Assembly: GCA_963749975.1 (NCBI GenBank)
Contig: CAVVOZ010000009.1
Span: forward strand, 8,923 to 72,922
Direction of reading: 5' to 3'
Source of the DNA: an uncultured Candidatus Rokubacteria bacterium
Lineage (GTDB): Bacteria; Methylomirabilota; Methylomirabilia; Rokubacteriales; DASRDR01
DNA: 64,000 nucleotides
In this document: positions 3,145 through 57,357 of the stretch, piece after piece
How the letters are laid out: each line of letters starts with the position of its first letter
Numbering within the stretch: position 1 is the stretch's first letter
Notes under the pieces: generated by a model
What the model was told of the DNA's origin: nothing
The model's input: the letters and a program-made list of their open reading frames with translations, nothing else
The model's database searches: none
Program-made: the position numbers and the translations under genes

Positions 3145-5188
3145 GTGTACCGGATCGGGATCGACGTCGGCGGTACCTTCACGGACCTGGTCGCCGTGGA
3201 CGAGCGCGGGCGCGTGACCCTCGCGAAGGCGGCCTCGACCCCGCAGGATCAGTCCCTCGGCGTCATGGAGGGGCTCGAGCCTCCTGGCCGCGGCGCTCGG
3301 CTGCGACCGGGCGGCCCTCCTCCGCGACACCGAGCGCATCGTCCACGGGACGACGGTCGCGACCAACGCCCTCCTCGAGCGCAAGGGGGCGCGGGTCGGG
3401 CTCCTCACGACCGCCGGCCACCGCGACGTGATCGAGATGCGGGAGGGGCTCAAGGACGACCGGTACAACCTCCGCATGGCGCCGCCGGAGCCGCTCGTGC
3501 CGCGCGCGCGGCGGCTCGGCATCCGCGAGCGCATGCGCGCCGACGGTCGAGTGGAGACGCCGCTCGATCCCCGCGCCCTCGACCGGGCCATCGCCGACCT
3601 CCGGCGCGCCGGCGTCGAGGCGGTGGCCGTCTGCTACCTGCACGCCTACCGGGACGCGCGGCACGAGCGGGCGACCGAGCGCGCCCTCCGCCGGGCGCTG
3701 CCGGGCGCCTACATCTCGCTCTCCTCGGAGGTCCTGCCCCAGATCAAGGAGTACGAGCGGGTCTGCACGACCGTCGTGAACGCCTACGTCGGACCCGCCC
3801 TCGCGCGCTACCTCTCGCGCCTGGCCGAGCGCCTCGTCCAGACCGGGTACGCGGGGCCCGTGCTCATCATCCAGTCCCACGGCGGCGTGGCCCCGGTTGC
3901 CGACGCCGTGCGCCTCGCCGCCGGGGCGGTCCTGTCCGGACCCGCGGGTGGCGTCGCGGGGAGCCGCTACTGCGCGCGCCTCCTCGGCGAGGGCAATCTG
4001 ATCCCCTTCGACATGGGCGGGACGAGCACCGACATCTCGCTCGTCGAGCACGGCGAGGCGCACCTCTCGCCGGACCGGGCGGTCGCGGGCCAGAAGGTGG
4101 CGCTCCCCAGCCTCGACATCGTGTCGATCGGCGCGGGCGGCGGGTCGATCGCCCGCGTGGACGCCGGCGGCACGCTCCGGGTCGGGCCGGAGAGCGCGGG
4201 CGCCGAGCCGGGCCCAGCGTGCTACGGCAAGGGCGGCACGGCCGCCACCGTGACGGACGCGAACCTGGTCCTGGGCTATCTCGATCCCGGGAACTTCCTG
4301 GGCGGCCGGACACAGCTCGACCTCGGTGCCGCGCAGCGGGCCGTGGACGCGATCGCGGAGCGGCTCGGCACCGAGCGGATGGTCGCGGCCGAGGGCATCC
4401 ACCGGGTCATCAACACGGTGATGGCCGAGGGCATCCGTGTCGTGTCGGTGCGGCGGGGCGTCGATCCCCGGCGGTTCGCGCTGCTCGCCTTCGGCGGGGC
4501 CGCCGCCCTCCACGTGACCGACGTGGCCCGGCGTCTCGAGATCGGGCGCGTCGTCGTGCCGCGGGTCGCGGCCGTGCTCTCGGCCTGGGGGATGCTGGCC
4601 ACCGATCTCCGGTACGAGGCGGTGCGGACCCACATCGGGGACGCGCGACGGGTCGGCGCGGCGCAGCTCCGCCAGGTGTTCGCCGCGATGGAGACCGAGG
4701 GGCGGCGGCGCCTGGCCGAGGCCTTCTCGGGGCCGGTGCGCATCCAGCGCGCCGTGGACATGCGCTACGGCGAGCAGATCTTCGAGGTCAACGTCTCGCT
4801 GGGGGACGTCGACCTCGAGGCGCCCGACGCGATGGCGGAGATCGTCGCGCGCTTCCACAAGCGCCACGAGGAGCTGTACACCTACGCGGCGCCGGACCAG
4901 GAAGTCGTCCTCGTCAACGCGCGCCTGGCGGTGGTGGGAGAGCTGCCGGCGTTGCCCGAGGAGCCCGCGCTTCCCGCGCGGCCGCCCGCGGCGCCCCGCA
5001 GCCGGCGGCGCGTCTACCTCGATGAGTGGCGCGAGGTGCCGGTCTACGATCTCGACGCGGTGGCTCCGGGGCAGGTGATCGCGGGGCCCGCGATCGTCGA
5101 GGCGGCGACGACGACGGCGCTCCTGCGCGCGGGCGAGCGAGCGACCGTGACGCCCCTCGGCTGGCTCGACATCCGCGTCGCGTCGTGA
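3145..5188 (+). CDS. hyuA: hydantoinase A/oxoprolinase family protein (HyuA-like); +1/-2 frameshift near 3278-3285
   Basis: GTG at 3145 gives VYRIGIDVGGTFTDLVAVDERGRV (the HyuA N-terminal motif) in frame 1. The rest (…LAAALGCDRAALLRDTERIVHGTTVATNALLERKG…MGGTSTDISLV…) is in frame 2, ORF 3428..5188. The frames meet at gggctcgagcctcctggcc. Confidence 0.75.
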
Positions 5189-45765: not shown

Positions 45766-46098
45766 ATGAAGCTCAGCGAGTTTCTGCGACAGAGCACGCG
45801 CCCGCAGGCGTTCGGCACGTTGACGGACGGTGATCGCGCGTGCGCCGTCGCCCAGATGTTCGAGGAGGCCTTCGGCGTGCCGACCCAGCGCGTGGGGGTC
45901 CGCCGGGAGAGCCAGCTCCTGCGGTGGGTGATCCAGACCTATCGCATCGAGATCCCGACCCGTCAGGAGTGGTGCCGGAAGTGCGAGATCCCCTTCCAGC
46001 TCCCCGACGGGCTGTCCGGCTACCTCATCCACCTGAACGATGTCCACCTCGCGTCGAAGGGCGTCATCGTGGAGGCCCTCGAGGAGCTCGGACTCTAG
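45766..46098 (+). CDS. hypothetical protein (110 aa)
   Basis: Clean ORF with genome-typical GC3 between ftsK and lolA. MKLSEFLRQSTRPQAFGTLTDGDRACAVAQMFEE…WCRKCEIPFQLPDGLSGYLIHLNDVHL…. No family recognised. Confidence 0.4.
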   Translation: MKLSEFLRQSTRPQAFGTLTDGDRACAVAQMFEEAFGVPTQRVGVRRESQLLRWVIQTYRIEIPTRQEWCRKCEIPFQLPDGLSGYLIHLNDVHLASKGVIVEALEELGL

Positions 46099-46138: not shown

Positions 46139-46807
46139 ATGCGTACGCGACCTTCTGCGCTCTGCCTGATCCTGGTCCTCGCCGGCGTCCTGGCGCTCGC
46201 CGCGGGCGCGACCGCCGCGCCGACGCTCGACGAGGCCGTGAGCGCCCTCGAGCAGGCCCAGCGGCGGGTGACCGACCTCAAGGCGCCGTTCCGGCAGGCG
46301 GCGCACAACAAGGCGCTCAACCAGACCATCGACGCCCGCGGCACGCTCTATCTGAAGAAGCCCGGGCGCCTGCGCTGGGAATACCAGACCCCGACGCCCC
46401 AGGAGATCGTCTCCGACGGCACGCGGCTCTGGATCTACACGCCCGAGCTCAAGCAGGTGAACGTGAGCGCCGCCCCGGCGGCCCTCGCCGGGCCCGCCGG
46501 GAGCTTCCTCCAGGGGCTCGGGCAGGTGCGGGAGCACTTCGACGCGCGCTTCCTCAACCCCGCCCAGCCGACCGACGCCGACGGGCTCGTCGTCCTCGAC
46601 CTCGCGCCGAAGCGCCCCCAGCCGCTCCTGGCGCGCCTGATCGTCTCGGTCGACCCCCGGAGCTGGCTCGTGCGGCAGGCGATCGTCCACGACGAGCTCG
46701 GGAACACCGTGACCGTGCGCTTCGGGGACACGGCGGTGAACTCGGGGCTCTCCGACGCGCTGTTCGTCTTCGTGCCCCCGCCGGGCGTCGCGGTCGTCCA
46801 GCACTGA
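46139..46807 (+). CDS. lolA: outer-membrane lipoprotein carrier protein LolA
   Basis: ATG 46139. Signal peptide MRTRPSALCLILVLAGVLALAAGATAA, then …LKAPFRQ…GTLYLKKPGRLRWEYQTP…RLWIYTPELKQV…. Confidence 0.75.
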   Translation: MRTRPSALCLILVLAGVLALAAGATAAPTLDEAVSALEQAQRRVTDLKAPFRQAAHNKALNQTIDARGTLYLKKPGRLRWEYQTPTPQEIVSDGTRLWIYTPELKQVNVSAAPAALAGPAGSFLQGLGQVREHFDARFLNPAQPTDADGLVVLDLAPKRPQPLLARLIVSVDPRSWLVRQAIVHDELGNTVTVRFGDTAVNSGLSDALFVFVPPPGVAVVQH

Positions 46808-46819
46808 CGCCGGGAGAGG

Positions 46820-47323
46820 ATGATGGCCAAGGCTGAGAACTCCTTCGACGTCGCGTGCAAGGTCGACCCGCAGGCAGTCACCGACGCGGTCCACCAGGCG
46901 ACCCGCGAGATCCAGACGCGCTACGACCTCAAGCAGACCAAGACCGAGCTCGGGCTGGAGAAGGACGCGATCACCGTCCACACGGACAACGACTACGTCC
47001 TGAAGCAGGTCCTCGACGTGCTCCAGTCGAAGCTCCACCGCCGGGGCGTGCCGCTGAAGGCGCTCACCTACGGGAAGGTCGAGCCCGCCGCGAGCGGCAC
47101 CGTGCGCCAGCGGATCGACGTCCAGCAGGGCATCCCGATGGAGAAGGCGAAGGAGATCGTCCGCCTGATCAAGGACACGAAGCTCAAGGTGCAGGCCCAG
47201 ATCCAGGAGGACCAGGTCCGGGTGTTCGGCAAGAACCGGGACGACCTCCAGGCGGTGATCAAGCTGCTCCGGGAGCAGGATCTGGGCATCGAGATGCAGT
47301 TCACGAACTACCGCTCGGAGTAG
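46820..47323 (+). CDS. yajQ: YajQ family cyclic-di-GMP-binding protein (UPF0234)
   Basis: [38 protein letters not shown]…[28 protein letters not shown]…. Confidence 0.8.
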
Positions 47324-47412
47324 CCGCCCGCGACGCCCTCCCGGCCGTGTGGTCGCTCCGCAGGCGACTCCGCTCGGCCGGGCTCGGCGGATCGACCGGC
47401 TATAATGCCGTC

Positions 47413-47745
47413 GTGGCAGAGCGAGCCGTCGCGCCCGCGGTGGACCCCGAGGTGCTGGCGATCGCCCGACAGGTCGCCGGGATCGTGCGACGAGTGCTGG
47501 GCGACCCCGCGTACCGCGTGTACCTCTTCGGCTCCTGGGTGGCGGGAGGAGCCGCTCCCCGCTCTGACATCGACATCGGCATCGAGGGCCCTGCGCCCGT
47601 ACCGCCGGCGGCGATGGTGACCATCCGCGACGCCTGTGAGGCCTTGCCCACGCTGCGCACCGTGGATCTGGTCGATCTCGCTCGGGTCGCTGCGGACTTC
47701 CGGGGGGGCCTTGTCGCGCGGTTGGTGGAGTCCGAGCCGTCGTGA
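47413..47745 (+). CDS. minimal nucleotidyltransferase (MNT) of an NTase/HEPN pair
   Basis: GTG 47413, immediately downstream of a perfect TATAAT at 47401-47406 (possibly leaderless). …RVYLFGSWVAGGAAPRSDIDIGIEG… is the GS…D.D NTase motif. Confidence 0.65.
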   Translation: MAERAVAPAVDPEVLAIARQVAGIVRRVLGDPAYRVYLFGSWVAGGAAPRSDIDIGIEGPAPVPPAAMVTIRDACEALPTLRTVDLVDLARVAADFRGGLVARLVESEPS

Positions 47746-48135
47746 CCGAGGGGAGCACCGCGCGTCGAATCGCCATCTTCTCCCAGGCCCTGGCTCGGTT
47801 GGAGCAGGCCTTGAGCATCCCCGAGGATCGCCATCGTCCGGGACGCCTGCATTCAGCGCTTCGAGTTCACGTTCGAGATGGCCTGGAAGGCCATCCAGGC
47901 GCACGCTCGGGTCCAGGGTATTCCGTGCGTGTCCCCTCGGGATTGCCTTCGCACGGCCTTTCGGCTCGGCCTCGTGGAGGACGACCCCGCGTGGATGGCG
48001 ATGGTGGAGGATCGAAATCGCACCACGCACACCTACGATGAGGCCAGCGCGCGTGCGATCTACGTCGCCCTGCCGGGCCACGCCCGGTTGCTGGCGACCC
48101 TCCTCGGCCGCTTGCGCGAACCGTCGGGGTCCTGA
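47742..48135 (+). CDS. HEPN / nucleotidyltransferase substrate-binding (HI0074-like) partner protein; frameshift ~47832
   Basis: GTG 47742 overlaps the MNT stop as GTGA. MTEGSTARRIAIFSQALARLEQALSIPEDR is in one frame. Then IVRDACIQRFEFTFEMAWKAIQAHARVQGI…WMAMVEDRNRTTHTYDEASARAIY (the R…H HEPN-like motif) is in the ORF 47878..48135 frame. Confidence 0.6.
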
Positions 48136-48483
48136 GCCCGGCTGGCCGAGACCTCGCCAGGACGCCGTGGAGGTGACAGCCGTGGGACGGCGCGTGCCCG
48201 GGCGAGAGACCACGGCTCCGAGTGCGATTAGGATCAGAAGGCGGTCTTTCTTTTCGCGGAGGTCGCGGTCGGTCGCCCCGCGGGCCACGCCGCGGAACGC
48301 CCGCATCGGCCGGTCGGGAACGAGGAAGATGACCCTCTCTTTGGCGAGCACGATGAGCTTCATCCCGGGCTGGAGCCGGAGTTGTTCGCGGACGGCTTCG
48401 TGGCAGCACGAGCCGGTACTTCCTGGACAGGGTCACCGTCTCCATCGTCTTACGAGGAGCGTAGTTCAAGCACGTTCCACCGC

Positions 48484-49110
48484 CTACTCGAGCCAGCGGG
48501 GGTCGCGGCCCGGGACCGCGCCGCCCGCGGTGGCGGCCGTCGGCCCGAGCCGGGCGAGGAAGTTCCCGAGGAGCGCCTTCCCCGACACGGTCAGGATCGA
48601 CTCCGGATGAAACTGGACGCCCTCGACCGGGAGCGTGCGGTGGCGAAGCCCCATGACCAGCCCGTCCTCGCTCTCCGCCGACACCTCGAGGCAGGCGGGC
48701 AGTCCCGCCCGACGCACCACGAGCGAGTGGTAGCGCGTCGCCTCGAAGGGGCTCGGCAGCCCCGCGAAGACCCCGCGTCCGTCGTGGTGGATCCAGGCCG
48801 TCTTGCCGTGGACGGGCACCGGCCCGCGCTCGACGATGCCGCCGAAGACCTCGCCGATGGCCTGATGCCCGAGACAGACGCCGAGGATCGGGACGCGCGC
48901 CGCGCACCGGCGGATGACCTCGACCGACACGCCCGCGTCGCGCGGGGCGCCCGGCCCCGGCGACACGACGATGCCCGCCGGCGCGAGCCGCTCGACCTCG
49001 TCCACCGTGATCGCGTCGTTCCGGTAGACCTCGAGCTCGGCGCCCAGCTCGCCGAGGTACTGGACGAGGTTGTAGGTGAAGGAGTCGTAGTTGTCGATCA
49101 TGAGCAGCAT
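48484..49110 (-). CDS. trpG: anthranilate synthase component II (glutamine amidotransferase)
   Basis: [23 protein letters not shown]…PGPGAP…[17 protein letters not shown]…GVQFHPESI carries the Cys-His-Glu GATase triad. Confidence 0.85.
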
Positions 49111-50612
49111 CACGGCCTCCCGCCGGTCCGGCCGGCCCGCTCGATCGCCGCCATGAGGGCCCGCGCCTTGGCGACGCATTCCTCCTGCTCCCGCTCCGGC
49201 ACCGAGTCGTAGACGACGCCGGCGCCGGCCTGGACGTAGGCGGTGCCCCGCCGCACGAGCACGGTACGGATCGTGATCGCCGTGTTGAGCGACCCGTCGA
49301 AGCCGAAGTAGCCGACGCACCCGGCGTAGGGCCCCCGGGCCACGGGCTCCAGGGCGTCGATGATCTCCATCGCCCGCACCTTCGGCGCCCCGCTCACGGT
49401 GCCGTGCGGGAACACCGCCTGGAGCACCTCCCACGGTGACCGGCCCGGGGCGAGGGTGCCCTCGACGTGGGAGACCAGGTGCATCACGTGGGAGTAGCGC
49501 TCGATCGACAGGAGCTCGCTCACCCGGACCGAGCCGTACCGCGCGACGCGGCCCACGTCGTTCCGGGTGAGGTCGACGAGCATCACGTGCTCGGCGCGCT
49601 CCTTCGGGTCGGCGAGGAGCGCGCGGGCGTGCGCCTCGTCCTCCTCGCGGTCGCGGCCGCGCGGGCGCGTGCCCGCGAGCGGCCGCATCTCGATCCGGCC
49701 GTCCTCGAGCCGGACGAGGCGCTCGGGGGACGAGCCCACGAGCGTCGCCCCGTCCCCGGCGTCGAGGAGGAACATGTAGGGCGAGGGATTCACCACGCGG
49801 AGGGCGCGGTAGATGGCGAGGGGATCGAGCCCGGGGACCGGCGTCGCGAAGCGCTGCGAGAGGATCACCTGGTAGATGTCGCCGGCGCGGATGTGCTCCT
49901 GGGCGCGCTCCACGGCCGCGCAGTAGGCGTCGGGGGCCCAGTTCGACCGGGGCGCCAGTGTCGTCGCCACCGCCGCCGGCTCGGGCGGCCGGGGACTCCG
50001 GAGCCGATCGAGGACCTGCTCGATCCGCTCGCGCGCTCGCGCCTCGGCCGCCTCGGCGCCCCCGTCCTCGTCGAGGAAGGCGTTCGCGACGATGCGCATC
50101 GTGTGGCGCCGGTGGTCGAACGCCACGATGGTGTCCATGAGCGCCAGGCGGAAGACCGGAAGGCCGAGGTCGTCGGGCGGCCGGCCGGGCAGTCGCTCCC
50201 ACAGGCGCACCGCGTCGTACGCGAGGTAGCCGAGGAAGCCGCCGGTGAAGGGCGGGAGCTCCGGATCCCGCGCCGCGCGGTAGCGCCCGAGATACCGCTC
50301 GAGCGTCTCGAGGGGGCGCCCCCGCTCGAGCAGGGTGCCGTCGGGCCGGAGGACCCGCACCTCCGCGCCGTCACACTCCAGCACGAGGCGGGGATCCCCG
50401 CCGAGGACCGAGAAGCGCGCGACCTGCTCTGGCCCTTCCACGCTCTCGAGGAGGAAGCTCGAGGGGAGGTCGCGGAGGCGCAGGTAGGCGGAGATGGGGG
50501 TCTCCAGGTCGGCGAGCAGCTCGCGCGAGACGGGCACCACGTTGGGAGCGCCCGCCCCCACGGCGCGCGCGCCCGGGGCGGAGGCCGACGGCAGCTCGGC
50601 ACGGGTCGACAT
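49110..50612 (-). CDS. trpE: anthranilate synthase component I
   Basis: ATG 50612 with AAGGAG 6 nt upstream. …LLESVEGP… (Trp-feedback LLES motif) …PYMFLLD…GTRPRG…[13 protein letters not shown]…GAPKVRAME…. The stop overlaps the trpG start (ATGA). Confidence 0.9.
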
Positions 50613-50884: not shown

Positions 50885-51337
50885 TCACCCCTGCTCCTCC
50901 TCCAACCGCTCCAAGTCCGCCAGGTCCCGGAGTCGCCCGGTCGCGCGCTTGTTCCGGATGAGTGTCTCGCGATCGAGGAAGGGGATATCGAGTGACCCGA
51001 CCCGATGCAGTACACGCGCGCCCCAGGCGCTCTCAAAGTCGACCCCGGTCAACCCCGTGAGGATGTCGATGCGACGGGGAGGCAGCCCGATCTGCAGGAC
51101 GATGCCGGGCCGGGTCAGATCGCCGGGCACCGCGCCGAGCGTCTCCATCGGGGCACCGAAGCGTCGCAGCGCCTCCCAGATCCGCTCGGCGTTGACCGCA
51201 TCCGCGAGGACCCAAATGTCGAGATCCCCCGTGGCGCGGACCACCCCGTGGACCGCCAGGGCGTGGGCGCCGACGACCAGGAAGCGCGCGCCGCTCGCCA
51301 GGAGGGCCGCGAGCATGTCCTGGAAGTCTTGGTTCAC
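50885..51337 (-). CDS. hypothetical protein (~150 aa), possible nucleotidyltransferase-like fold
   Basis: GTG 51337 with GGAGG 14 nt upstream. MNQDFQDMLAALLASGARFLVVGAHALAVHGVVRATGDLDIWV…DILTGLTGVDFESAWGAR…. The long upstream extension in ORF 50885..51541 is Arg/Pro-rich junk. Confidence 0.4.
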   Translation of the reverse strand: MNQDFQDMLAALLASGARFLVVGAHALAVHGVVRATGDLDIWVLADAVNAERIWEALRRFGAPMETLGAVPGDLTRPGIVLQIGLPPRRIDILTGLTGVDFESAWGARVLHRVGSLDIPFLDRETLIRNKRATGRLRDLADLERLEEEQG

Positions 51338-51772
51338 GCGGGGCTCGCGGGCCTCCGACGATCGAGCCGGCAGAGCCGGAGGGGAGTCGCGGTCCGCGGG
51401 TAATTGGGCATCGGCCGACCGCTCAGCGCCCAGGCCTCCACCGTGAGGGACCAGACCATCGCCAGGCGCTCTTCGGGCGTGGCCAATCGGTCGACGTGAT
51501 CCTGGGGCTCGGCCCCGAGGGCGACGAGCCGCACAGGCCACGTGCGGCGGGACGCCGCCCTGGACACCGTCCCCGCAGCCTCGCCTTCCGGCATGCCGGG
51601 ATTATAGTCCAGGGGACTCCTGAGAGCACCGATTCCGCGGTTTGCCCCGGCGCTATAATGGCGCCGCCTTCAGACCCGTCCGAGACTGCGGCGGACCAGG
51701 CGCGCCGAGCGAGGGCCCGCCGGAACGAGCGAGCGCAGCGGATCGGCGCGACGACGGGTCGCAGTCGGTCCG

Positions 51773-54571
<2,799 letters not shown>

Positions 54572-54616
54572 TCGAGGGAGCCGCGCGGAGCCACCGCGCG
54601 CGGCGAGGAGCGGAGC

Positions 54617-54982
54617 GTGGCCAAGCGCATCCTGGTCGTCGAGGATCACGAGGAGAATCGCCAGATCATGCGCGATCTCCTGACGCACGCGGGCTACGAG
54701 ATGGTCGAGGCCCACACCGGGGAGGACGGCGTGATCGCCGCCGGCCGCGAGCGCCCGGATCTCATCCTCATGGACATCCAGCTGCCGGGAATCGACGGCT
54801 ACGAGACGACCCGGCGAATCAAGGCGGACCCAGCGCTCCGCGCGATCCCGATCATCGCCGTCACGTCCTACGCGCTCTCCGGCGACGACCAGAAAGCCCT
54901 CGCCGCCGGCTGCGACGCGTACGTGACGAAGCCCTTCAGCCCGCGTGCCCTGCTGGGAAAGATCCGCGGGTACCTCGGATGA
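54617..54982 (+). CDS. response regulator, single receiver domain (CheY-like)
   Basis: GTG 54617 with AGGAG upstream. ILVVEDHEENRQIMRDLL…DLILMDIQLPGIDGYETTRRIK…IPIIAVTSYALSGD…AAGCDAYVTKP. Confidence 0.85.
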   Translation: MAKRILVVEDHEENRQIMRDLLTHAGYEMVEAHTGEDGVIAAGRERPDLILMDIQLPGIDGYETTRRIKADPALRAIPIIAVTSYALSGDDQKALAAGCDAYVTKPFSPRALLGKIRGYLG

Positions 54983-54986
54983 CGCG

Positions 54987-56101
54987 GTGAGGACGCCGCC
55001 GCGCCTCCTGATCGCGGACGACAACCCGCTCAACGTCGACATCCTCCGGACCCGACTCGCCACCCAGGGCTACGAGGTGCTCACGGCGAGCGATGGCGAA
55101 GCGGCGCTGGCACTCGCGCGCGCGCAGCAGCCCGATCTCCTCCTCCTCGACATCATGATGCCGGGGCTCGATGGGCTCGAGGTGTGCCGCCGCCTGAAGG
55201 GCGACCCCACGCTCCCGTTCATGCCGGTCATTCTCGTCACCGCCAAGGCCGACTCGCGGGACGTCGTGGCCGGCCTCGACGCGGGCGCGGACGAGTACCT
55301 GACGAAGCCGGTGGACCAGGCGGCGCTGGTCTCGCGGGTGAAGTCCATGCTCCGGATCAAGGCGCTCCACGACACGGTCGAGGAGCAGGCGTCGGCCCTC
55401 GGCGAGTGGAACCGCACCCTCGAGAGCCGCGTGCGCCAGCAGGTCGAGGAGCTCGAGCGGCTGGGGCGGCTGAAGCGCTTCTTCTCGCCGCAGCTCGCCG
55501 ACGCGATCGTCCAGGGCGGCGCCGAGGATCCTCTCCGGTCGCACCGGCGCGAGGTGACGGTGGTCTTCGCCGACTTGCGGGGGTTCACGGCCTTCGCCGA
55601 GGCGGCCGAGCCCGAGGAGGTCATGGCGGTCCTCCGCGAGTACCACGGCGAGATGGGCCGGCTCATCCTGGCTCACGAGGGCACGCTCGAGCGGTTCACG
55701 GGCGACGGGCTCATGGTGTTCTTCAACGATCCGATTCCCGTGCCCGACGCCCCGGAGCGCGCGGTGCGCATGGCGGTCGCCATGCGGGATCGCGTCGCCG
55801 AGCTCGCCGCGAAGTGGCGCCGCGAGGGGTACGAGCTCGACCTCGGCCTCGGCATCGCCCGGGGCTACGCGACGCTCGGCGCGATCGGCTTCGAGGGACG
55901 CTGGGACTACGCGGCGCTCGGGACGGTGACCAACCTGGCGGCGCGGCTCTGCGGCGAGGCCCGACCGGGCCAGATCCTCGTCGCCCACCGTGTCCTGGCG
56001 GCGCTGGACGAGCTGGTGGACGTGGAGCCGCTGGGGGAGGTCGCCCTCAAGGGCTTCCTCCGCCCGTCCCCGTCTTCAGCGTGCTGCGACTGCGGTCGTA
56101 G
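54987..56101 (+). CDS. response-regulator receiver / class III adenylate-guanylate cyclase fusion; 1-bp deletion frameshift ~56063
   Basis: GTG 54987. Receiver (LLIADDNPLNVDILRTRL…LLLLDIMMPGLDG…ILVTAKAD…DEYLTKP), coiled-coil linker, then cyclase homology domain (REVTVVFADLRGFT…FTGDGLMVFFN…GIARGYATLGAIGFEGRWDYAALGTVTNLAARL). The true C-terminus …GFLRPVPVFSVLRLRS* is in the ORF 55184..56101 frame. Confidence 0.8.
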
Positions 56102-56552
56102 GGTCTTCCGGATCGTGGGACCGGCCCGGTGCCCTTGGCGTGCGAGCGCCCGTCCGGAGCGCTCGCGCCACGGCGAGCTTCTGGGGGGGCCGTGGTCCGC
56201 GAGGTCGAGCTCGCCTCGTAGAACGTGCCGAGATGCCGGGAGTCAACCATCAGGACGCAGTGCGAGCCCTGGAGACGGCAGGCTAACGAATCGTCCGGCA
56301 GGGGAAGCACATCGTGAGAGCGACGGGGTCCGGATCGTGACCATTCCAAGGACAGGTCGATTCTTCACCTGCTGACGAGGTTACCCCGGACCGGTCGGAC
56401 AGTGCGACGCCCACGGGCGCTCGACGGCCCAGCCCACGCAGCTCTTCGCGGGACGCCTGTCCGGTCCGCCGGCCACGGGGGGTGGAGACTTCGGGTCCCC
56501 AACCCTGGCCTCTTAGGCGACGCTAACGGGGGCTCGCGGGCTTTCCCCGACT

Positions 56553-57357
56553 GTGGCATGGTATGGCGTCATGCAGCCGCCCGCGGAGGCCCCGCCGTCC
56601 TTCTGGGATGATGTCGGGGCGAACTTCCCGTCGCTCAAGGGGGCGGTGTCCACCGCCTACTACTTCGACTGCGAGCGCTGGCTCTTCGAGACGTACCTCC
56701 CCAAGCTTCGAGACCTCGTCGTCTTCAAGACCGACCTCTGGGACGAGGCGAAGAACACCGAGATCCTGCGCTGGGCGGCCGATCGCGGCGCCCGTCCGAT
56801 GGGTGTCGACGTGTCGATCGACGTCGTGCGGGAAGCGGGCAAGGTGCTCGACGCCCATCGCCCGGGCTTCGTGGTCGGCGACGTGCGGGCGATCCCGTTC
56901 CGGGACGGCGCGGTTGACGCGGTCTACTCGATGGGAACGATCGAGCACTTCGAGGAATACGCCCAGGCGGTCCGGGAGATCTTCCGGATCCTCAAGCCCG
57001 GCGGCACGGCGATCGTCGGCGTGCCCAACAAGCTCGACCCGTTCCTCAGGCCGCTCATGGTCCACGTGCTGAACGCCGACGGGTCTGTACGGCTACGGGA
57101 TGGAGAAGTCGTTCACGCCCGGCGCCCTCCAGCGCCTGCTGGAGTCGGCCGGCTTCCGGGTCACCGCGCGGACGGGCATCCTCTTCATCCCCGGCTGGCT
57201 CCGGATGCTGGAGCTGTGGCTCTACACGCGGCGCGTCCCGGCTCACCGGCGTCATCACCTCCGGCCCGTCCGCCTGTTCGCCTGGCTGTACCGGCGGTTC
57301 CCCGCCGTCCGGCGCCACGGGTACCTGACCGTCTGCGTGGCGGAGCGCCCGGACTGA
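56553..57357 (+). CDS. class I SAM-dependent methyltransferase; 1-bp insertion frameshift ~57082
   Basis: GTG 56553. …VVGDVRAIPFRDGAVDAVYSMGTIEHFEEY…ILKPGGTAIVGVPNKLDPFLRP… The C-terminus (…GYGMEKSFTPGALQRLLESAGFRVTARTGILFIPGW…TVCVAERPD*) is in the ORF 57100..57357 frame. Confidence 0.7.

What the first reader, a model, noticed from the sequence alone, without database searches (positions are those of the whole stretch)
47395..48135. MNT/HEPN nucleotidyltransferase pair next to the trp operon, with a TATAAT-adjacent start and a frameshifted HEPN partner
A 110-aa minimal nucleotidyltransferase (GSxxxDxD motif) and a HI0074-type HEPN / NTase-substrate-binding protein overlap by GTGA. This is the classic two-gene MNT-HEPN module, type VII toxin-antitoxin-like, where MNT modifies HEPN.

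A perfect TATAAT at 47401-47406 lies 6 nt upstream of the MNT GTG, suggesting a leaderless transcript. The HEPN gene carries a 1-bp insertion at ~47832, so the putative toxin may be inactivated if the indel is real. Alternatively this is another homopolymer error.
Basis: partly seen in the sequence, partly recalled or inferred. Interest (0 to 1): 0.5.

Follow-up and report, generated by a model that had tools for sequence, protein, structure and literature searches.

The report
Ordinary MNT-HEPN toxin-antitoxin pair; frameshift likely artefact
This is a standard two-gene MNT/HEPN toxin-antitoxin module kept at the same chromosomal spot in a group of Methylomirabilia bacteria, and the apparent break in its toxin gene is most likely one of many single-base sequence errors in this window.

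Summary
A 110-aa minimal nucleotidyltransferase (47413-47745) overlaps a HI0074-type HEPN gene (47742-48135) by GTGA. A perfect TATAAT lies 6 nt before the MNT start. One extra base at 47828/47829 breaks the HEPN frame.

Pfam and NCBIfam support both assignments. The catalytic motifs are present: GSX10DXD in MNT and RX4HXY in HEPN.

The module sits between yajQ and trpG-trpE in at least nine related contigs. Both genes are under purifying selection there (dN/dS 0.13-0.28). TATAAT-N6-(A/G)TG is invariant although the rest of the spacer has diverged, which fits a leaderless start.

The frameshift is probably not biological. The same kind of single-base insertion splits rsmA, RNase J, ftsK and a methyltransferase in this window. 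Close relatives are intact at every one of these sites, including the closest HEPN (97% nt). The insertion is not in a homopolymer.

Separately, four related assemblies share a 2-bp deletion near the start of HEPN, so toxin disruption may occur in this lineage at a different site.

Verdict: a new member of a well-known kind, of low interest.

The parts
47401..47406 (+). Perfect TATAAT, the putative -10 box, 6 nt upstream of the MNT start codon
   Evidence: Read directly. CGGCTATAATGC is invariant in nine syntenic loci while the flanking spacer has diverged and, in L085, carries a ~780-bp insertion. There are 5 TATAAT sites in the window against 0.22 expected. No -35 match was found by the sigma-70 scan.
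47413..47745 (+). MNT gene: minimal nucleotidyltransferase, the putative antitoxin, 110 aa. The GSX10DXD motif spans G40 to D54 (47530-47574).
   Evidence: PF18765 29.6 bits and PF01909 27.8 bits, both above cut-off. HI0073 (PDB 1NO5) E=1.9e-5. The start is ATG at the same position in L085 and L087-L091, and the differences in codons 2-14 from L087-L090 are all synonymous third-position changes. dN/dS 0.20-0.28.
47742..48135 (+). HEPN gene, HI0074 / NTase_sub_bind type, the putative RNase toxin. It is 130 aa once the extra base is removed. The RX4HXY motif is R91, H96, Y98 (48013-48036).
   Evidence: Repaired protein: PF08780 110.7 bits and TIGR01987 97.1 bits. PDB matches: TTHA0048 1e-32, Legionella HEPN toxin 8XDJ 1e-14, HI0074 6e-12. 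R91, H96 and Y98 are invariant in 26 homologues. dN/dS 0.13-0.20 between distant loci, up to 0.33 between the closest pairs.
47828..47829 (+). One extra base (T or C) that shifts the HEPN frame after codon 29
   Evidence: Absent from L001, L081-L084 and L093, and from all protein homologues, which read PEDAIVRD.
47742..47745 (+). GTGA overlap: HEPN start GTG and MNT stop TGA, consistent with translational coupling
   Evidence: Read directly. Gene calls in L085, L087-L091 and two contigs without DNA show the same 4-nt overlap.

Best explanation
**What it is.** The locus is a chromosomally fixed, probably functional MNT-HEPN toxin-antitoxin operon of the HI0073/HI0074 subtype. This subtype is related to the type VII HepT/MntA systems.

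**Where it sits.** It lies between yajQ and the convergent trpG-trpE pair in a Methylomirabilia (NC10/Rokubacteria-related) lineage.

**How it most likely works (inferred by homology).**
- The HEPN protein would be a dimeric RNase that uses R91 and H96 of its RX4HXY motif.
- The 110-aa MNT, with a GSX10DXD active site, would transfer AMP to Tyr98 of that motif and so switch the RNase off.
- Loss of MNT activity or of ATP would free the RNase and arrest translation.

**Expression (inferred).** The two genes are translationally coupled through the GTGA overlap. They are probably transcribed from a conserved TATAAT placed so that transcription starts at or within a few bases of the MNT start codon, giving a leaderless mRNA.

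**The frameshift.** The single extra base at 47828/47829 is most likely a sequencing or assembly error, not a mutation of the organism.

**Shown versus inferred.**
- Shown here: domain membership, motifs, gene overlap, conserved synteny, purifying selection, the conserved -10 box, and the fact that the window carries equivalent insertions in housekeeping genes.
- Inferred: RNase toxicity, AMPylation, the leaderless start, and that the indel is an error.
For: **Family and motifs.**
- HEPN: PF08780 110.7 bits; TIGR01987 97.1 bits (cut-off 55.8).
- MNT: PF18765 and PF01909 both above cut-off.
- R91, H96 and Y98 are invariant in 26 homologues. They align with RNQTSHTY of the Legionella HEPN toxin 8XDJ. 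In that protein R98 and H103 belong to the RX4HXY motif and Y105 is AMPylated by the cognate short MNT (PMC11586414).

**Conservation.**
- The order yajQ | MNT-HEPN | ... | trpG trpE is the same in L001, L081, L085, L087-L091 and two JGI contigs.
- dN/dS is 0.13-0.20 for HEPN between distant loci (up to 0.33 between the closest pairs) and 0.20-0.28 for MNT, at dS up to 0.9.

**Promoter.**
- CGGCTATAATGC plus 4 nt plus (A/G)TG is invariant in nine loci.
- TATAAT is 20-fold enriched in the window and avoids the segments called coding.
- GTG or ATG at the 5' end is enough for leaderless translation in mycobacteria (PMC6448022).

**Artefact.**
- Compared with L081 and L001, the window has +1 insertions that split rsmA (41340), RNase J (43115), ftsK (43645: aa 1-97 in frame 3, aa 98-749 in frame 1) and a methyltransferase (~57083).
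- L081 and L001 differ from each other by only two indels in 8.7 kb.
- The closest relative, L093 (97% nt identity over HEPN), has an intact HEPN.
- With the extra base removed, the window's HEPN shows dN/dS 0.17 against L001.
Against: - No reads are available, so the error cannot be shown directly.
- The insertion is not in a homopolymer, so it does not fit the commonest long-read error mode.
- Four related assemblies carry a different frame-breaking lesion in the same gene. Real HEPN disruption may therefore occur in this lineage.
- The NCBIfam equivalog models for MntA (36.9 bits, cut-off 60) and HepT (16.1 bits, cut-off 60) are not reached. The mechanism is therefore transferred from a sister subfamily.
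- No -35 element was found and there are no TSS data.
Confidence: 0.8

Rival explanations
1. The +1 insertion is a real mutation. In this strain the HEPN toxin is a recent pseudogene, and MNT is left as an orphan antitoxin in a decaying toxin-antitoxin hotspot.
For: - L081 to L084 (one NCBI MAG and three Logan assemblies) share a 2-bp deletion after HEPN codon 5. It is the only non-3n indel between L081 and L001 in 8.7 kb.
- The neighbouring MazE-like gene is also broken in the window.
- The PIN partner present in L091/L092 is missing here.
Against: - Identical-looking single-base insertions interrupt ftsK, RNase J, rsmA and a methyltransferase in the same window. That is implausible for a viable cell.
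- The closest relative, L093, is intact.
- There is no excess of amino-acid changes in the window's HEPN (dN/dS 0.17 against L001).
Confidence: 0.12
2. The pair is not a toxin-antitoxin system. It is a two-subunit nucleotidyltransferase in which the HI0074-type protein is a substrate-binding subunit for some other target. This is the older annotation of HI0073/HI0074.
For: - NCBIfam and JGI name the family "nucleotidyltransferase substrate-binding subunit".
- The MntA and HepT equivalog cut-offs are not reached.
- The module is vertically inherited at a fixed chromosomal site rather than on a mobile element.
Against: - The RNase motif residues R91, H96 and Y98 are invariant.
- A PDB homologue of the same subfamily (8XDJ, E=1e-14) is an experimentally shown RNase toxin that its MNT AMPylates on the motif tyrosine (PMC11586414).
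Confidence: 0.06
3. The frame change is a programmed +1 ribosomal frameshift that regulates the toxin dose.
For: None beyond the existence of the frame change.
Against: - All twelve sequenced relatives that cover this site lack the extra base.
- There is no slippery or stop-codon-stalled motif at GAG GAT CGC.
- The same type of insertion occurs in unrelated genes.
Confidence: 0.01

Closest known systems
Legionella pneumophila HEPN-MNT (lpg2920/lpg2921; PDB 8XDJ, 8XEH, 8XEM), a type VII toxin-antitoxin system
   Same: - The HEPN is of the same sequence subfamily (phmmer E=1.2e-14).
- The RX4HXY motif aligns: RNRTTHTY here against RNQTSHTY there.
- The two genes overlap.
- That paper describes its MNT as short, lacking the long C-terminal helix (PMC11586414). 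The MNT here is also short (110 aa), but I did not compare the two MNTs.
   Different: - HEPN identity is only about 30-35%.
- The overlap there is 8 bp, against 4 bp (GTGA) here.
- Nothing is known here about oligomeric state, metal dependence or RNA targets.
Haemophilus influenzae HI0073/HI0074 (PDB 1NO5, 1JOG) and Thermus thermophilus TTHA0048 (1WTY)
   Same: - Founding members of the families PF08780 / TIGR01987 (HEPN) and minimal NTase.
- The window's HEPN matches TTHA0048 at E=1e-32 and HI0074 at 6e-12. The MNT matches HI0073 at 2e-5.
   Different: - The PDB entries name these proteins only as hypothetical proteins. I did not look for functional studies of them.
- The window pair comes from a 72.5% G+C Methylomirabilia genome and sits at a conserved chromosomal site.
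Shewanella oneidensis HepT/MntA (SO_3166/SO_3165), the prototype type VII system
   Same: - Same logic: a GSX10DXD nucleotidyltransferase polyadenylylates the tyrosine next to the RX4H RNase motif (PMC7641770).
- Same gene order, with MNT first.
   Different: - That toxin belongs to PF01934 (DUF86). The window's HEPN scores only 24.9 bits on PF01934 and 16.1 bits on the HepT equivalog.
- The MntA chain in the PDB is 139 aa and matches the window's MNT only at E~1.

Membership tests
HI0074 / NTase_sub_bind HEPN family (PF08780, TIGR01987) | Profile score above the curated cut-off over the full domain | tested here: met
   The repaired 130-aa protein scores 110.7 bits on PF08780 (cut-off 31.8; profile positions 2-124 of 126) and 97.1 bits on TIGR01987 (cut-off 55.8). 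The 3' fragment alone scores 66.3 bits.
HI0074 / NTase_sub_bind HEPN family (PF08780, TIGR01987) | Uninterrupted reading frame | tested here: not met
   As written, the window has one extra base at 47828/47829. Whether this is true of the organism is undecided; an artefact is favoured.
Type VII HEPN-MNT (HepT/MntA-like) toxin-antitoxin system | Adjacent co-oriented MNT and HEPN genes in one operon | tested here: met
   4-nt GTGA overlap at 47742-47745. The same arrangement is seen in at least nine related loci.
Type VII HEPN-MNT (HepT/MntA-like) toxin-antitoxin system | MNT with a Pol-beta-type fold and a GSX10DXD catalytic motif | tested here: met
   PF18765 29.6 bits and PF01909 27.8 bits. 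The sequence G40-S41-WVAGGAAPRS-D52-I-D54 was read. The motif definition is taken from PMC11586414.
Type VII HEPN-MNT (HepT/MntA-like) toxin-antitoxin system | HEPN with an RX4HXY motif that includes the acceptor tyrosine | tested here: met
   R91-NRTT-H96-T-Y98. All three residues are invariant in 26 homologues and align with the motif of 8XDJ.
Type VII HEPN-MNT (HepT/MntA-like) toxin-antitoxin system | NCBIfam equivalog models MntA_antitoxin (NF047752) and HepT_toxin (NF047751) reached | tested here: not met
   36.9 bits and 16.1 bits, against cut-offs of 60. The pair is a sister subfamily, not an equivalog of the Shewanella proteins.
Type VII HEPN-MNT (HepT/MntA-like) toxin-antitoxin system | HEPN is a growth-inhibiting RNase that its cognate MNT neutralises by AMPylation | not testable with these tools
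   Needs expression, RNase and mass-spectrometry assays.
Leaderless transcript | A -10 element 5-9 nt upstream of the start codon, with no room for a Shine-Dalgarno sequence | tested here: met
   TATAAT at 47401-47406, a 6-nt spacer, then GTG at 47413. The arrangement is invariant in nine loci, with ATG in the more distant ones.
Leaderless transcript | Mapped transcription start at the first base of the start codon | not testable with these tools
   No transcriptome data are available.

The most novel reading that the evidence does not exclude
The HEPN toxin gene may be hit repeatedly by frame-breaking mutations in this lineage: +1 at codon 29 in this strain and -2 at codon 6 in the L081-type strains. 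A chromosomally fixed MNT-HEPN module would then be caught while losing or remodelling its toxin.

In the L081-type allele the deletion places HEPN in the MNT frame, separated only by the MNT TGA stop. Stop-codon read-through would then give a fused MNT-HEPN protein. That would be a possible intermediate towards the fused FhepTA architecture described in 2026 (PMC13000451).
Probability: 0.08. Interest if true: 0.35.

Novelty: new member of a known kind. Interest (0 to 1): 0.13.

Why it matters
It matters little beyond annotation. MNT-HEPN is described as the most abundant predicted toxin-antitoxin module in prokaryotes (PMC7641770), and this pair has all the family hallmarks.

There are three practical points:

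- **Sequence quality.** This window carries many single-base insertions that split essential genes. "Pseudogenes" called from it should not be trusted without reads.
- **Conservation.** The module is vertically conserved and under purifying selection at one chromosomal site in Methylomirabilia. That is unusual for a class normally thought of as mobile.
- **Testable promoter.** The conserved TATAAT-N6-start gives a clean candidate for leaderless expression in a phylum for which I know of no transcription-start data.

Tried and rejected
- **Full sigma-70 promoter and intrinsic terminator scan of 46700-48700.** Nothing was found. The TATAAT has no recognisable -35 and no TGn extension.
- **Fold of the yajQ-MNT spacer.** It gives a hairpin of -44.3 kcal/mol, but z = -1.7 against shuffles. 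I did not treat it as a terminator.
- **Rfam on the whole window.** No family reached its gathering score.
- **Exact DNA pattern around the indel, with an optional base, in the metagenome collection.** 0 hits.
- **Protein-guided scan of the same collection.** It returned only relatives of 75% identity or less, so it says nothing about the indel.
- **Programmed frameshifting.** Rejected, because every relative is in a single frame at this site.
- **Homopolymer error.** Rejected as a description. The context is GGA-T-CGC, and the other insertions are mostly not in homopolymers either.
- **Alternative MNT start at GTG 47440, used by the L081 gene call.** Rejected for two reasons. The differences from L087-L090 between 47413 and 47440 are all synonymous third-position changes. 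Distant relatives also have ATG at the 47413 position.
- **Pfam on the second TATAAT-linked ORF pair (86 aa and 150 aa).** No hits.
- **-10-like boxes next to the MNT start in more distant loci.** A survey found suggestive cases (L117, L018, L116) but no consistent pattern.

Full report
**1. What is in the sequence**

The window has 72.5% G+C. Between yajQ (46820-47323, +) and a convergent trpG-trpE pair (48487-50612, -) lie two overlapping + strand genes.

The first gene runs from GTG 47413 to TGA 47745 and encodes 110 aa. The second starts at GTG 47742, inside the GTGA that contains the first gene's stop. It reads VTEGSTARRIAIFSQALARLEQALSIPED for 29 codons. The recognisable protein then continues in the next frame (IVRDACIQRFEFTFEMAWK...) to TGA 48135. 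A perfect TATAAT occupies 47401-47406, 6 nt before the first GTG.

**2. Identity of the two proteins**

- **MNT.** The 110-aa protein passes the Pfam cut-offs for Polbeta (PF18765, 29.6 bits) and NTP_transf_2 (PF01909, 27.8 bits). It carries G40-S41-X10-D52-x-D54. It matches HI0073 (PDB 1NO5) at E=1.9e-5.
- **HEPN.** With one base removed, the second gene encodes 130 aa. This protein scores 110.7 bits on PF08780 (NTase_sub_bind) and 97.1 bits on TIGR01987 (HI0074 family).
- **Solved relatives of HEPN**:
  - TTHA0048, E=1e-32.
  - TTHA0636, E=6e-26.
  - The Legionella pneumophila "HEPN toxin" 8XDJ, E=1e-14.
  - HI0074, E=6e-12.
- **Catalytic motif.** The window's RNRTTHTY (R91, H96, Y98) aligns with RNQTSHTY of the Legionella protein. 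In that protein R98 and H103 belong to the RX4HXY motif, and Y105 is AMPylated by the cognate short MNT (PMC11586414). R91, H96 and Y98 are invariant in an alignment of 26 homologues of 58-96% identity.
- **Limit of the assignment.** The NCBIfam equivalog models for the Shewanella-type MntA and HepT are not reached (36.9 and 16.1 bits, against cut-offs of 60). The pair belongs to the HI0073/HI0074 sister subfamily rather than to HepT/MntA proper.

**3. The frameshift**

Close protein homologues (81-96% identity, most of them 130 aa) all read PEDAIVRD or PEDPIVRD. At the DNA level, L001 (a Candidatus Methylomirabilia MAG), L081 (GCA_041493215.1), three Logan assemblies and L093 read GAGGA-CGCCATC. 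The window reads GAGGATCGCCATC. L093 is the closest relative, at 97% nt identity over HEPN. The window thus has one extra base at 47828/47829, in a non-homopolymer context.

To decide whether this is biology or error, I compared the window with L081 and L001 over 8.4-10.7 kb of shared synteny (about 95% identity). The window carries further single-base insertions inside housekeeping genes at sites where the two relatives agree with each other. tblastn confirms that each gene is split between two frames in the window:

| Gene | Position in window | Split |
|---|---|---|
| rsmA/ksgA | 41340 | frame 1 to frame 2 |
| RNase J | 43115 | frame 3 to frame 1 |
| ftsK | 43645 | aa 1-97 in frame 3, aa 98-749 in frame 1 |
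| UbiE-like methyltransferase | ~57083 | frame 3 to frame 1 |

Three further points bear on the question:

- L081 and L001 differ from each other by only two indels in 8.7 kb.
- A GC3-based frame HMM placed its frame switches within 7 nt of all four verified sites. It also suggests several more candidates elsewhere in the window.
- A cell with broken ftsK, rnj and rsmA is implausible. The downstream parts of these genes are still 91-96% identical to relatives.

The simplest reading is that the window's sequence carries scattered single-base insertion errors, roughly one per 2 kb in the compared stretch. The HEPN frameshift is one of them. With the extra base removed, the window's HEPN shows dN/dS 0.17 against L001, with no sign of decay.

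**4. Conservation and selection**

The order yajQ | MNT (110 aa) - HEPN (130-132 aa, 4-nt overlap) | ... | trpG trpE recurs in L001, L081, L085, L087-L091 and two JGI contigs. HEPN identity to the window in these loci ranges from 81% to 96%.

The DNA between HEPN and trpG varies:

- a MazE-like gene alone (window, L081);
- MazE plus a class-I Trp/Tyr tRNA synthetase gene (L090);
- PIN plus MazE plus the synthetase (L091, L092);
- the synthetase alone (L088);
- in L085, an extra PIN-containing pair lies between yajQ and MNT.

The site is therefore a small toxin-antitoxin hotspot in which MNT-HEPN is the constant element.

Pairwise dN/dS between distant loci is 0.13-0.20 for HEPN and 0.20-0.28 for MNT, at dS 0.4-0.9. 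The values for yajQ are 0.07-0.35. Both proteins are therefore maintained by selection. Their GC3 (0.8-0.88) is lower than that of the neighbouring core genes (0.93-1.0). That is consistent with foreign origin or weaker codon adaptation.

**5. Expression signal**

- **Footprint.** In an alignment of the yajQ-MNT spacer from nine loci, CGGCTATAATGC, 4 variable bases and the start codon are conserved. The rest of the spacer has diverged and, in L085, is interrupted by about 780 bp.
- **Start codon.** It is GTG in the window's close group and ATG in L085 and L087-L091. The differences in codons 2-14 from L087-L090 are all third-position synonymous changes. Position 47413 is therefore the true start, not the GTG at 47440 used by one gene caller.
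- **Enrichment.** TATAAT occurs 5 times in the window against 0.22 expected, and avoids the segments the frame-plot HMM calls coding. A second copy (51606-51601, -) is also followed by 6 nt and an ATG.
- **Geometry.** From general knowledge, bacterial RNA polymerase usually starts about 7 nt after the -10 hexamer. This geometry therefore predicts a leaderless or nearly leaderless mRNA. ATG or GTG at the 5' end suffices for leaderless translation in mycobacteria (PMC6448022).
- **Caveats.** This remains an inference. No -35 was found and there are no TSS data.

**6. Mechanism proposed**

The mechanism is transferred by homology from the Legionella and Shewanella systems (PMC11586414, PMC7641770). 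HEPN would be an RNase toxin. MNT would AMPylate Tyr98 beside the catalytic R91/H96 and so neutralise it. The toxin would become active when MNT or ATP is limiting. The domains, motifs and operon structure are shown here. The enzymology is not.

**7. A real polymorphism nearby**

L081 and three Logan assemblies from other read sets share a 2-bp deletion after HEPN codon 5. It is the only non-3n indel between L081 and L001. It puts the rest of HEPN in the MNT frame directly after the MNT TGA (...ESEPS*PRGAARRIAIFSQ...). Gene callers then start the gene at an internal TTG and give 107 aa.

This suggests that disruption or remodelling of the toxin may really occur in the lineage, though at a different site from the one flagged. 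It keeps a modest probability on the pseudogene reading for the window. It also raises a speculative link to the fused MNT-HEPN proteins (PMC13000451).

**8. Verdict**

- The family assignment and the operon logic are correct.
- The leaderless idea is plausible and now has phylogenetic-footprint support.
- The "inactivated toxin" idea is most likely an artefact of sequence quality.
- The system is a new member of a well-known kind. Interest is low.

Noticed in passing
L081:5144-5863, also L082, L083, L084: Four related assemblies share a 2-bp deletion after HEPN codon 5. It leaves HEPN in the MNT reading frame, separated only by the MNT TGA stop. It is the only non-3n indel between L081 and L001 in 8.7 kb.
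   Followed up: partly
window 41340, 43115, 43645, ~57083: Single-base insertions split rsmA/ksgA, RNase J, ftsK and a UbiE-like methyltransferase in the window, while relatives are intact. Frame-plot analysis suggests more candidates near 3279, 17032/17475, 20221, 21695, 21977, 25560/25672 and 53568.
   Followed up: partly
window 48238-48448 (-): This is a MazE/AbrB-type antitoxin gene (PF04014, 29 bits after repair). It is split by an extra base at 48396, and another extra base at 48236 removes its stop. Relatives L091/L092 have a PIN gene on the same strand beyond MazE, so this looks like the remnant of a VapBC-like module.
   Followed up: partly
window 48166-48205 and 48464-48485: In the HEPN-MazE spacer, about 40 nt carry nine single-base insertions relative to all relatives. 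Near the trpG end, about 17 nt are missing. Both stretches are far more divergent than the surrounding DNA.
   Followed up: no
window 51606-51334 (-) and 51337-50894 (-): There is a second TATAAT-N6-ATG arrangement, in front of an 86-aa ORF. It is followed by a 150-aa ORF that is conserved in L085 (84% identity). Neither ORF has a Pfam match.
   Followed up: partly
window 51337-56592: The window holds about 5 kb more than L085 between the conserved 150-aa gene and the methyltransferase gene. This stretch includes a 966-nt low-GC3 segment (51357-52322) and two TATAAT boxes.
   Followed up: no
window 45766-46098 (+): A 110-aa ORF lies between ftsK and lolA. It is conserved in every syntenic relative (97% identity to L081) and has no Pfam family.
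   Followed up: no
window 46820-47323 compared with 47413-48135: GC3 is 0.97-1.00 across most of yajQ but only 0.80-0.88 in the MNT-HEPN genes. This suggests foreign origin or weaker codon adaptation of the module.
   Followed up: no
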